NCBI GenBank assembly: GCA_951406725.2
Contig: OX597837.1
Span: forward strand, 47,306,001-47,370,000
Length of the DNA stretch: 64,000 bases
Direction: 5' to 3'
Origin: Octopus vulgaris
Lineage: Eukaryota
Position numbers and translations under genes: made by a program. Positions 32,545-63,150 of this stretch are shown here, piece after piece (the stretch's first letter is position 1; every line of letters begins with the position of its first letter). The notes beneath the pieces were generated by a model that was given only the letters and a program-made list of their open reading frames with translations, searched no databases and was not told the DNA's origin.

Positions 32545-35500
32545 CTGTTGTCGTTGGTTCTTCAGGTGTGACTGTTGTCGTCAGTGCTGCTGCTGCTGCT
32601 TGGTTGTTCCGTTGTTGTTGTTGTTGTTGTCGGTGGTTGCTCAGTTATTGCTTTTGTTGGTCTCACATTTGCTGTCCTTCATTGACCAATTGTTGTTGTT
32701 GGTTGATCAGCTGTTGTTATTGATGTGTCTTTTGTTGTTCAGACGTAGTTTGTTCACTCAGATAATGTTATTGTTTGATCATTTGTTTTCTTCGTTGTTC
32801 AGTTTTTATCCTTGGTTGAAAAGTTGTTGGATGTTCCCTTGTTCAATTCTTGTTGTTGGTTGTTCAGTTGTTGTTGTTGTTGGTTGTTCAGTTGTTGTTG
32901 TTGTTGGTTGTTCAGTTGTTCTTGTTGTTGGTTGTTCAGTTGTTGTTGTTGTTGGTTGTTCAATTCTTGTTGTTGGTTGTTCAGTTGTTGTTGTTTTTGG
33001 TTGTTCAGTTGTTGTTGTTGTTGGTTGTTCAGTTGTTGTTGTTGTTGTATTGTTCAGTTATTGTTGTTGTTCTATTGTTCAGTTGTTGTTGTTGTTGGTT
33101 GTTCAGTTGTTGTTATTGTTGTATTGTTCAGTTGTTGTTGTTGTTGGTTGTTCGGTTGTTGTCGTTGGTTGTTCAGTTGTTGTTGTTGTTGTTCAGTTGT
33201 TATTGTTGTTGGTTGATCGGTTGTTGTTGTTGTTGGTTGTTCAGTTGTTGTTGTTGTTGTTCAGTTGTTATTGTTGTTGGTTGATCGGTTGTTGTTGTTG
33301 TTGGTTGTTCAGTTGTTGTTGTTGTTGTTCAGTTGTTATTGTTGTTGGTTGATCGGTTGTTGTTGTTGTTGGTTGTTCAGTTGTTGTTCTTGTGTTGTTC
33401 AGTTGTTGTTGTTGTTGGTTGTTCAGTTGTTGTTGTTGTTGGTTGTTCAGTTGTTGTTGTTGTTGTTCAGTTGTTATTGTTGTTGGTTGATCGGTTGTTG
33501 TTGTTGTTGGTTGTTCAGTTGTTGTTGTTGTGTTGTTCAGTTGTTGTTGTTGGTTGTTCAGTTGTTGTTGTTCTTGTATTGTTCAGTTGTTGTTGTTGTT
33601 GTATTGTTCAGTTGTTGTTGTTGTTTGTTTGTTCAGTTGTTGTTGGTTGTTCAGTTGTTGTTGTTGTTGTATTGTTCAGTTGTTGTTGTTGTTGGTTGTT
33701 CAGTTGTTGTTATTGTGTTGTTCAGTTGTTGTTGTTGTTGTTATTGGTTGTTCAGTTGTTGTTGTTGTTGTTCAGTTGTTATTGTTGTTGGTTGTTCGGT
33801 TGTTGTTGTTGTTGGTTGTTCAGTTGTTGTTGTTGTTGTGTTGTTCAGTTGTTGTTGTTGTTGGTTGTTCGGTTGTTGTTGTTGTTGGTTGTTCTGTTGT
33901 TGTTGTTGTTGTTCAGTTGTTATTGTTGTTGGTTGTTCGGTTGTTGTTGTTGTTGGTTGTCCAGTTGTTGTTCTTGTTGGTTGTTCAGTTGTTGTTGTTG
34001 TTGTTCAGTTGTTATTGTTGTTGGTTGTTCAGTTGTTGTTGTTGTTGGTTGTTCAGTTGTTGTTGTTGTTGGTTGTTCGGTTGTTGTTGTTCTTGTTGTT
34101 CAGTTGTTATTGTTGTTGGTTGTTCGGTTGTTGTTGTTGGTTGTTCAGTTGTTGTTGTTGTTGGTTGTTCAGTTGTTGTTGTTGTTGTTGTTCAGTTGTT
34201 ATTGTTGTTGGTTGTTCGGTTGTTGTTGTTGCTGGTTGTTCAGTTGTTGTTGTTGTTGTTCAGTTGTTGTTGTTGTTGGTTGTTCAGTTGTTGTTGTTGT
34301 TGGTTGTTCAGTTGTTGTTGTTGTTGGTTGTTCAGTTGTTGTTGTTGTTGTTGTTGTTGTTGTTGTTGGTTGTTCAGTTGTTGTTGTTGTTGGTTGTTCA
34401 GTTGTTGTTGTTGTTGGATGTTCAGTTGTTGTTGTTGTTGTTCAGTTGTTATTGTTGTTGGTTGTTCGGTTGTTGTTGTTGGTTGTTCAGTTGTTGTTGT
34501 TGTTGGTTGTTCAGTTGTTGTTGTTGTTGGTTGTTCGGTTGTTGTTGTTGTTGGTTGTTCAGTTGTTGTTGTTGTTGTTCAGTTGTTATTGTTGTTGGTT
34601 GTTCGGTTGTTGTTGTTGCTGGTTGTTCAGTTGTTGTTCTTGTTGGTTGTTCAGTTGTTGTTGTTGTTGTTCAGTTGTTATTGTTGTTGGTTGTTCGGTT
34701 GTTGTTGTTGCTGGTTGTTCAGTTGTTGTTGTTGCGGGTTGTTCAGTTGTTGTTGTTGTTGTTGTTCAGTTGTTATTGTTGTTGGATGTTCGGTTGTTGT
34801 TGTTGCTGGTTGTTCAGTTGTTGTTGTTGTTGTTCAGTTGTTGTTGTTGCTGGTTGTTCAGTTGTTGTTGTTGTTGGTTGTTCGGTTGTTGTTGTTGTTG
34901 GTTGTTCAGTTGTTGTTGTTGTTGTTGGATGTTCAGTTGTTGTTGTTGTTGTTGGATGTTCAGTTGTTGTTGTTGTTGGTTGTTCAGTTGTTGTTGTTGT
35001 TGGCTGTTCAGTTGTTGTTGTTGTTGGATGTTCAGTTGTTGTTGTTGTTGGTTGTTCAGTTGTTGTTGTTGGTTGTTCAGTTGTTGTTGTTGTTGGTTGT
35101 TCAGTTGTTGTTGTTGGTTGTTCAGTTGTTGTTGTTGTTGGTTGTTCAGTTGTTGTTGTTGTTGGTTGTTCAGTTGTTGTTGTTGTTGTTGTTCAGTTGT
35201 TGTTGTTGTTGGTTGGTCAGTTGCTGTTGTTGTTGATGTTGTTGGATGTTCAGTTGTTGTTGTTATTGGTTGTTCAGTTGTTGTTGTTGTTGGTTATTCA
35301 GTTGTTGTTGTTGTTGGATGTTCAGTTGTTGTTGTTGGATGTTCAGTTGTTGTTGTTGGTTGTTCAGTTGTTGTTGTTGTTGTTGGATGTTCAGTTGTTG
35401 TTGTTGTTGGTTGTTCAGTTGTTGTTGTTGTTGGTTGTTCAGTTGTTGTTGTTGTTGATGTTCAGTTGTTGTTGTTGTTGGATCTTCTGTTGTTGTTGTT

Positions 35501-63037: not shown

Positions 63038-63150
63038 CTTTGCAGAAATCTCAGCAACCTTCGCTTGTGTCTCAGCATTATTAAGATCCGAATATATAGC
63101 TTTGTATTCCTCATTCAAGTGCATTTCTACATTGACCGAACTAGTAACAC
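63038..63150 (-). CDS. SEA-PTS mucin, cassette 3, SEA exon A (G-VTSSVNVEMHLNEEYKAIYSDLNNAETQAKVAEISAK)
   Basis: Acceptor catttcttctacag| and donor AAG|gtaaga; 113 nt, phase 1-0, open. Resembles the SEA N-terminal strand plus 'Y..DL.N..' helix. Repeated three times. Confidence 0.85.

What the first reader, a model, noticed from the sequence alone, without database searches (positions are those of the whole stretch)
32545..63150. Giant modular [SEA-PTS]n mucin built by tandem duplication of a phase-symmetric 4-exon cassette
Seen: each ~8 kb unit has exons of 113, 68 and 128 nt plus a multi-kb Thr-rich exon, all GT/AG-bounded. Phases 1-0, 0-2, 2-1 and 1-1 chain without a stop: ...EPTTT-G-VTSSVNVEMHLNEEYKAIYSDLNNAETQAKVADISAK-VDESMENSELADTYLGNNVTQL-R-NGSLIADLIMEFKRADPQVEIVRETINNITGVIGEKTKVNSE-N-TVQQTTT... 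The ORF track misses this domain because it is split over three small exons. Known: a ~100 aa module with this pattern next to O-glycosylated regions is a SEA domain. Alternating SEA/PTS mucins have, from my recollection, been reported in frog; I know of no characterised cephalopod example. Inference: one mucus/skin/egg-coat glycoprotein of at least ~2,900 open codons in this window, whose length can change by whole-cassette copy number. No signal peptide, TM helix or VWD domain is visible here.
Basis: partly seen in the sequence, partly recalled or inferred. Interest (0 to 1): 0.85.

Follow-up and report, generated by a model that had tools for sequence, protein, structure and literature searches.

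The report
Octopus skin mucin of SEA repeats
An unnamed octopus gene makes a very long skin-mucus protein from repeated folded-domain-plus-threonine-rich blocks, and it probably hangs from the cell by its front end, the reverse of human surface mucins.

Summary
Three minus-strand cassettes of 113, 68 and 128 nt exons plus a Thr/Glu/Pro-rich exon splice into 2,910 open codons (48% Thr, no Cys). All four junction types, including PTS to next SEA, appear in 4 of 4 probable-RNA runs. Near-identical Octopus sinensis models pass the Pfam SEA cut-off and fold as SEA. Two peptides encoded by all three cassettes occur in a published O. vulgaris skin-mucus proteome. New here: in related octopus gene models the cassette follows a cytoplasmic N-terminus, one signal-anchor helix and an extra SEA, the head of type II transmembrane serine proteases, yet no protease exon was found. 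Best reading: a type II membrane-tethered, sheddable mucin with at least five SEA domains, each with a GS cleavage-type motif. Caveats: the link to the anchor rests on one gene model and on neighbouring accessions; cleavage and glycosylation are untested; cassettes 1 and 2 may be one locus assembled twice; the third PTS exon loses its frame after about 600 codons. Alternating SEA/PTS proteins are known in frog, as secreted proteins. Verdict: new variant of a known kind.

The parts
63038..63150 (-). exon A1, first third of SEA domain (phase 1-0)
   Evidence: matches P0001/P0002
61543..61610 (-). exon B1, middle of SEA (phase 0-2)
60496..60623 (-). exon C1, last part of SEA, starts with the GSLIA motif (phase 2-1)
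57222..60065 (-). exon D1, open PTS exon, 947 aa, 24-30 nt Thr/Glu/Val/Pro repeats (phase 1-1)
55284..55396 (-). exon A2
   Evidence: D-to-A and A-to-B joints in 4 of 4 runs
53804..53871 (-). exon B2
52723..52850 (-). exon C2
   Evidence: peptide RADPQVEIVR in skin mucus
49179..52322 (-). exon D2, open PTS exon, 1,047 aa
47110..47222 (-). exon A3
45639..45706 (-). exon B3
44533..44660 (-). exon C3
42211..44030 (-). open part of exon D3, 605 codons of TE[H/Q]PTTTT repeats, to the first stop
32545..42210 (-). rest of D3: same repeat with frame shifts and in-register stops, ending in a copy of the D donor; probably decayed 3' sequence, possibly assembly error
31733..32544 (-). 812-nt copy of the start of the D-to-A intron; cassette homology ends here
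29816..30033 (-). candidate further Thr/Ser-rich exon: AG acceptor, 71 codons in phase 1, then a stop; used in another frame by the O. sinensis model P0001; possible last or decayed exon
28210..28278 (-). acceptor resembling the start of exon D, followed by a stop after 20 codons; probable decayed exon

Best explanation
One expressed octopus gene encodes a large, cysteine-free, acidic mucin-type protein of alternating SEA and PTS blocks that reaches skin mucus (shown, except that no single transcript across several cassettes was seen). Upstream of the window lie at least one more cassette, a divergent SEA, a single signal-anchor helix and a cytoplasmic N-terminus, so the chain is inserted N-in/C-out (inferred from gene models of the same species group). 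In the ER each SEA folds, is N-glycosylated and probably cleaves itself at G/S of GSLIA in the beta2-beta3 turn while staying bound; in the Golgi the PTS blocks are O-glycosylated into stiff rods (inferred from MUC1, matriptase and enteropeptidase). The result is a tall glycocalyx brush with a release point before every PTS block, shed under shear into the mucus (inferred). It grew by unequal crossing-over of a phase-symmetric four-exon block (well supported by the mosaic of unit similarities) and ends in D3, with no folded C-terminal domain.
For: Exons, phases and open frame. Joints D-A, A-B, B-C, C-D in 4 of 4 runs; single contigs in X2 (369 nt) and X4 (409 nt) carry both A and C. Pfam SEA 33.1 and 48.2 bits against a cut-off of 26.4 for P0001 and P0002. 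AlphaFold2 model of P0002: helix 66-95 and two SEA folds, cassette SEA pLDDT about 90, G308/S309 between strands 297-306 and 309-318; best solved matches are SEA domains, Z 11.2-14.4, rmsd 2.1-3.5, 97-114 aligned, next fold Z 8.3. 4 high-confidence PSMs of two peptides in O. vulgaris skin mucus (PMC10138644 Table S1); both peptides are in all three units. Anchor: P0002 (XP_029655839.2) joins anchor, extra SEA and a cassette SEA; P0003 (CAI9740437.1, anchor plus extra SEA) and P0006 (CAI9740435.1, a fourth cassette variant) sit on a contig of the same length, two accessions apart. One uncharged 25-residue segment, net +3 to +5 before it and 0 to +1 after it, no hydrophobic start (P0002, P0003, P0016). 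The extra SEA breaks at the same points as exons A and C. The 7 top atlas structure rows for the cassette SEA are type II serine-protease clusters. Motif set GSVVV, GSVIV, GSVIA in passages of PMC2958558.
Against: The O. vulgaris annotation keeps anchor-SEA and cassette as separate models; only one automatic model joins them, and its linker has no match in the window. No transcript linking anchor to cassette was examined. All 3 PSM rows for the P0002 accession are the cassette peptide, none from its head (file cut when stored). GSLIA is not one of the proven motifs; PMC2958558 calls the similar GSLRV of TMPRSS6 only putative; the Asn just before Gly is in an N-glycosylation sequon. The tree of 22 rows does not resolve where the SEA came from. 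Skin scrapings also hold cells, so presence in mucus does not prove shedding.
Confidence: 0.6

Rival explanations
1. A secreted SEA/PTS mucin like the frog family: the cassette array has its own signal-peptide exon upstream, and the anchor-SEA gene is a separate neighbouring paralogue fused to it by gene prediction.
For: Separate O. vulgaris models; only cassette peptides in mucus; a paralogue P0005 shows the family has several genes; frog precedent.
Against: None of the 8 octopus-type hits (P0001-P0008) shows a signal peptide in its listed sequence; the three with an N-terminal region plus P0005 have an internal anchor. The extra SEA shares the cassette's exon breaks and ends on a phase-1-type donor, as expected if it splices on.
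Confidence: 0.2
2. The array is the greatly extended stalk of a type II protease or receptor (corin- or enteropeptidase-like) whose Fz, LDLa, MAM or trypsin exons lie further downstream; the D3 breaks are assembly errors or are spliced out.
For: Relatives found with P0002 have anchor-SEA-Thr-rich linker followed by such domains: P0017 (LDLa, MAM) and P0018 (Fz, LDLa, trypsin, MAM). D3 ends in an intact phase-1 donor. 22 of the frame-shifted units could be a one-base loss in an AAA run.
Against: No tblastn match of P0014 or P0017 in 1-32544; 0 of 205 minus-strand frames of 40 aa or more reach a Pfam cut-off, a weak test since the SEA exons also fail singly. Five substitution-type stops lie in distal D3 and none in D1, D2 or open D3. 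The intact AAA form stands 3 of 3 times in open D3 and 1 of 23 times beyond (p 0.0015). The downstream Thr-rich exons carry stops.
Confidence: 0.1
3. The copy number is inflated: cassettes 1 and 2 are two haplotypes of one locus assembled in tandem. This can hold together with the best explanation and would shorten the protein by one cassette.
For: The block from intron B-C of unit 1 to intron B-C of unit 2 and the next block differ at 4 of 1,634 sites in the D-A intron, 2 of 340 in intron C-D and 5 of 1,403 in intron A-B, a level alleles could show.
Against: D1 and D2 differ by 300 nt and at 34 of 591 sites in their last part. Units 1 and 3 differ at 158 of 4,023 intron sites. Run X1 carries 13 of 15 listed intron variants of unit 3, so unit 3 is real, and further SEA variants are transcribed (exon A with 6 changes, exon C with 7).
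Confidence: 0.3
4. A transcribed pseudogene or a non-functional repeat array.
For: The 3' part is broken; exon differences between units are not mostly silent.
Against: 2,910 open codons, 0 of 183 units off frame in D1 and D2 against 44 of 319 in D3 beyond the open part (p 8e-10); peptides detected.
Confidence: 0.03

Closest known systems
[quoted passage not shown] 2007; seen only through one passage of PMC4948705)
   Same: Alternating SEA and PTS blocks in one chain.
   Different: Described as secreted; the octopus protein appears N-terminally anchored. Homology to the frog SEA was not tested; independent origin is inferred.
Vertebrate SEA-type membrane mucins (MUC1, MUC3, MUC12, MUC13, MUC16, MUC17)
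   Same: PTS tandem repeats in large exons, SEA with a GS-hydrophobic motif in the beta2-beta3 turn, proposed shedding from an epithelium.
   Different: They are type I, with an N-terminal signal and a C-terminal anchor (passage of PMC9578598). MUC16 has many SEA domains after its PTS region, not between PTS blocks (chicken Muc16 in PMC1552070).
Type II transmembrane serine proteases (enteropeptidase, matriptase, HAT/DESC, corin-like)
   Same: Cytoplasmic N-terminus, signal anchor, membrane-proximal SEA; nearest folds in the atlas and top PDB row.
   Different: No protease, LDLa, CUB, Fz or MAM domain found; the SEA-plus-linker block is repeated and the linker is about 1,000 residues.
Fish multi-SEA proteins (P0009, P0010, P0013, P0015)
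   Same: 3-4 SEA domains separated by Thr-rich linkers, GSI[V/I/L] motifs.
   Different: Short linkers, signal peptide and hydrophobic C-terminus; 25-28% identity.
De novo 'mucinized' genes (PMC9417175; abstract and outline seen)
   Same: A non-mucin precursor gains O-glycosylatable exonic repeats.
   Different: Those precursors are secreted proline-rich proteins of mammals; here the proposed precursor is a type II anchor-SEA head, and a folded domain is duplicated with the repeat exon.

Membership tests
SEA domain (PF01390) | Pfam gathering score | tested here: met
   P0001 33.1 and P0002 48.2 bits against 26.4; P0001 differs from unit 2 at one internal SEA residue. The window's single exons score nothing (0 of 3).
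SEA domain (PF01390) | Ferredoxin-like fold matching solved SEA domains | tested here: met
   six top rows are SEA domains, Z 11.2-14.4.
Autoproteolytic SEA domains | G-S-hydrophobic motif in the beta2-beta3 turn | tested here: met
   GSLIA in all three units, in the turn of the model.
Autoproteolytic SEA domains | Actual cleavage at G/S | not testable with these tools
   No peptide spanning or starting at the site was found in the readable part of the supplement.
Mucins (functional class) | Long Pro/Thr/Ser-rich tandem-repeat domain | tested here: met
   47.7% Thr, 8.4% Pro, 2.2% Ser over 2,910 aa; repeats.
Mucins (functional class) | Dense O-glycosylation | not testable with these tools
   Inferred from composition only.
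Mucins (functional class) | Presence at an epithelial surface or in mucus | tested here: met
   4 PSMs in arm skin scrapings.
Vertebrate SEA-type membrane mucins | Type I topology: N-terminal signal, C-terminal anchor and tail | tested here: not met
   Related models have no hydrophobic start and one internal anchor at 70-94; the open frame ends in PTS repeats. The true 3' end is not confirmed by RNA.
Xenopus alternating SEA/PTS proteins | Alternating SEA and PTS | tested here: met
Xenopus alternating SEA/PTS proteins | Secreted (signal peptide, no anchor) | tested here: inconclusive
   The 5' end is outside the window; gene models point to an anchor.
Xenopus alternating SEA/PTS proteins | Common descent of the SEA | not tested
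   None of the hits whose source was looked up was a frog protein (P0012, P0013, P0015 not looked up); the original paper is not held.
Type II transmembrane serine proteases | Cytoplasmic N-terminus, signal anchor, SEA | tested here: met
   In the related models P0002, P0003, P0016; not inside the window.
Type II transmembrane serine proteases | C-terminal trypsin-like domain | tested here: inconclusive
   None found in 32.5 kb downstream and the frame stops in D3, but small or more distant exons can be missed.
Gel-forming mucins | Cys-rich VWD, CysD, CK domains | tested here: not met
   0 Cys in 2,910 aa; no such Pfam hit in P0001-P0008.

The most novel reading that the evidence does not exclude
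Octopuses independently built a membrane mucin upside down: the anchor-SEA head of a type II serine-protease-like gene lost its enzyme, and its SEA-plus-linker block was amplified into a micrometre-scale brush with a self-cleaved, force-releasable joint before every PTS block, so the skin can shed it piece by piece, and unequal crossing-over still changes the number of pieces.
Probability: 0.35. Interest if true: 0.78.

Novelty: new variant of a known kind. Interest (0 to 1): 0.58.

Why it matters
SEA-type membrane mucins are described as type I proteins that arose in vertebrates (passage of PMC9578598). A type II, multi-SEA version in octopus skin would be a convergent solution with reversed polarity, and a case of a mucin arising from a membrane-protease-type head. 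Several near-identical SEA domains in series would allow a direct test of the idea that the cleaved SEA is a mechanical fuse. It also gives a structure to a skin-mucus protein that public annotations hold only as four short 'uncharacterized' fragments.

Tried and rejected
No whole genome was held, so the 5' end and read depth could not be checked. Single exons against Pfam: 0 of 3. Sequence search of PDB with P0002: no SEA hit, best E 0.19. Run search: no RNA holder listed on record; the runs laid are RNA by the tool's guess. Downstream domain exons: 205 minus-strand frames gave 3 hits under cut-off, none extracellular. Longer relatives: one hit, P0018, nearly identical to an alignment member and so not independent. 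Tree: unresolved, bootstrap not settled; one of its 22 rows was not a SEA, and P0008 and P0011 gave no row. A profile from 14 non-octopus rows scored the units 46-48 bits against at most 10.9 in 200 shuffles, but its rows were hits of P0002, so it is partly circular. Linkage of shifted units to a neighbouring variant (13 of 13 against 16 of 77) first looked like proof of real shifts, but a systematic one-base loss gives the same pattern, so it was set aside. Intron cover after D3 in X1 and X4 fits unit 3, but X1 also covers other introns, so it does not show a 3' UTR. Ink proteome supplement: 0 hits for six terms. The supplement of PMC11431876 could not be read and may hold more peptides; its main text names none of six accessions. 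Paper searches: octopus+mucin+SEA domain 0; SEA domain+type II+mucin+invertebrate+threonine-rich+tandem 0; type II/mucin-like/SEA/mollusc 1 unrelated; a recalled vertebrate motif 0; searches listed no title on this gene. Subscription papers are not covered; Lang 2007 and Pei and Grishin 2017 are not held. Earlier findings of the scan: none.

Full report
Observation. The window is AT-rich animal DNA with microsatellites. On the minus strand between 63150 and 32545 lie three copies of a four-exon block: A 113 nt, B 68 nt, C 128 nt and a long Thr-rich exon D of 2,844, 3,144 and 11,486 nt. Spliced in a script, the frame is open for 2,910 codons: 47.7% Thr, 16.8% Glu, 8.4% Pro, 7.7% Val, no Cys, net charge about -455, 313 kDa without sugars, three N-glycosylation sequons and one GSLIA motif per A-B-C product. 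In D1 and D2, 0 of 183 repeat units shift the frame.

Transcription. I laid 4 of the 23 runs listed on 52150-57450. In all four (three studies; RNA is the tool's guess) contigs skip exactly the four introns, including PTS exon to next exon A. The units are too alike to tell 57222^55396 from 49179^47222, and contigs are not single molecules, so the junction type is shown but not a full-length transcript. Two contigs carry more divergent exons (A with 6 changes, C with 7), so copies outside the window are expressed too.

Identity. Exon C alone found two Octopus sinensis models: P0001 (XP_036368970.1) and P0002 (XP_029655839.2). Their cassette part is nearly identical to the window's, which places the window in the O. 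vulgaris/sinensis group. Both pass the Pfam SEA cut-off (33.1 and 48.2 bits against 26.4). The AlphaFold2 model of P0002 has two SEA folds, the cassette one at pLDDT about 90, with the Gly-Ser of the motif between two strands. The six best solved matches are SEA domains of TMPRSS6, MUC16 and a mouse transmembrane protease (Z 11.2-14.4, rmsd 2.1-3.5, 97-114 aligned; next fold 8.3). Passages of PMC6954182 place MUC1 autoproteolysis in that same loop, and PMC2958558 lists GSVVV, GSVIV and GSVIA as cleaved motifs and GSLRV as only putative.

Protein and tissue. Table S1 of PMC10138644, a proteome of O. vulgaris arm-skin mucus (methods passages), holds four high-confidence spectra: RADPQVEIVR three times in two raw files and AIYSDLNNAETQAK once (file cut when stored, so a lower bound). 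Both peptides are encoded by all three units, one on each side of the motif. The main text does not name the protein. The ink proteome supplement had no hit.

The missing 5' end. P0002 begins with about 69 hydrophilic residues, one uncharged 25-residue segment and a divergent SEA, before a cassette SEA and the start of a D-type repeat. O. vulgaris CAI9740437.1 (P0003) has the same head, and CAI9740435.1 (P0006) is a fourth cassette variant that reads into the same intron B-C; both lie on a contig of 48,210,619 nt. O. bimaculoides has the head as well (P0004, P0016). Charge is +3 to +5 before the segment and 0 to +1 after it, with no hydrophobic start: a type II signal anchor by the positive-inside rule (established knowledge). 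Truncated models of the extra SEA stop or start at the positions of the window's exon ends, so it is an older copy of the same block. A paralogue, P0005, has anchor, PTS, SEA and shares the cytoplasmic part (38% over 94 columns, E 1e-22). The head resembles that of type II serine proteases: the 7 top structure rows for the cassette SEA and the best feature hit for the head are such clusters. Relatives found with P0002 continue from anchor, SEA and a Thr-rich linker into LDLa and MAM (Argonauta P0017) or Fz, LDLa, trypsin and MAM (P0018). Against: O. vulgaris models are split, the P0002 linker has no match in the window, no head peptide was seen, and the tree does not resolve origin.

How the array grew. 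Along unit 2, the odd unit is unit 1 up to about 53,650 and mostly unit 3 after it. The newest event thus copied C-D-A-B with a crossover in intron B-C, the mark of unequal crossing-over; any register works because the whole block keeps the frame. Its two copies differ at 4 of 1,634 sites in the D-A intron, while units 1 and 3 differ at 158 of 4,023 intron and 4 of 309 exon sites. The newest pair could be two haplotypes assembled in tandem; depth could not be tested. Unit 3 is real: run X1 carries 13 of 15 listed intron variants of it.

The 3' end. D3 is open for 605 codons. Beyond that 44 of its 379 units shift the frame, from 0 of 34 in the first kb to 18 of 33 in the eleventh. Three in-register substitution stops lie in the middle part and two in the non-repetitive tail, none in D1, D2 or open D3. 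Thr-rich exon remnants at 30033 and 28278 also carry stops. I read this as real decay behind an early stop, but 22 shifted units could be a one-base loss in an A run, and the assembly method is unknown. If D3 were intact the window alone would encode about 6,200 residues. No domain exon was found downstream, a weak negative.

Mechanism. Shown: exon structure, splicing, SEA fold in prediction, peptides in skin mucus. Inferred: N-terminal anchor, O-glycosylation, cleavage at each SEA, shedding. At a recalled 0.25 nm per glycosylated residue, each PTS block would span 150-260 nm. Without cysteines it cannot polymerise like a gel-forming mucin. It would work like MUC1's releasable barrier (passages of PMC6491460) but with reversed polarity and several release points.

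Comparison and verdict. Alternating SEA/PTS proteins are known from Xenopus tropicalis as secreted proteins (one passage of PMC4948705; original not held). Vertebrate SEA mucins are type I (PMC9578598 passages). Searches for an octopus or type II invertebrate SEA mucin found nothing (open-access library only). The gene is a true SEA-domain mucin-like protein, not a member of the vertebrate membrane or gel-forming families, and not shown to be a protease. New variant of a known kind; interest 0.58.

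Noticed in passing
window 17654-17726 (+): tRNA-Phe(GAA) gene, the only ARAGORN call in the window.
   Followed up: no
window 55489-55961, 47372-47844, 63273-63745, 10177-10649, 2459-2958, 1823-2351: A ~480-nt SINE-like repeat ending in (AAT)n; one copy rides in each D-to-A intron and was duplicated with the cassette; very high depth in all four runs.
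   Followed up: partly
window 10721-11449 and 3169-3613: Very long trinucleotide microsatellites, 243 and 148 copies.
   Followed up: no
window 16763-16863 with 17102-17202; 414-553: Inverted repeat pairs (the first 91% over 101 nt; the second seen by eye), possibly MITE ends.
   Followed up: no
window 12036-12275 (-): Weak DUF7041 hit (E 3.8e-5, under cut-off) in a stretch that looks like a decayed retrotransposon.
   Followed up: no
window 30429-31031 (-), about 19000-20560 (-), about 7200-8900 (-): A 201-codon frame and broken frames that look by eye like LINE or Penelope reverse-transcriptase remnants; recalled resemblance, no Pfam hit.
   Followed up: no
P0002 residues 5-97 and P0005 residues 7-100: The cytoplasmic N-terminus, with an aromatic TPFWP-containing stretch, is conserved between two octopus paralogues whose outer parts differ; a possible sorting or signalling motif.
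   Followed up: partly
P0009, P0010, P0013, P0015: Fish proteins (P0009 and P0010 named as cypriniform, uncharacterized; the other two not looked up) with signal peptide, 3-4 SEA domains, Thr-rich linkers and a hydrophobic C-terminus suggesting a GPI anchor.
   Followed up: no
P0018: Unnamed 1,807-aa type II protease with SEA, Thr-rich linker, three Fz, LDLa, trypsin and three MAM domains, the protease sitting in the middle of the chain.
   Followed up: no
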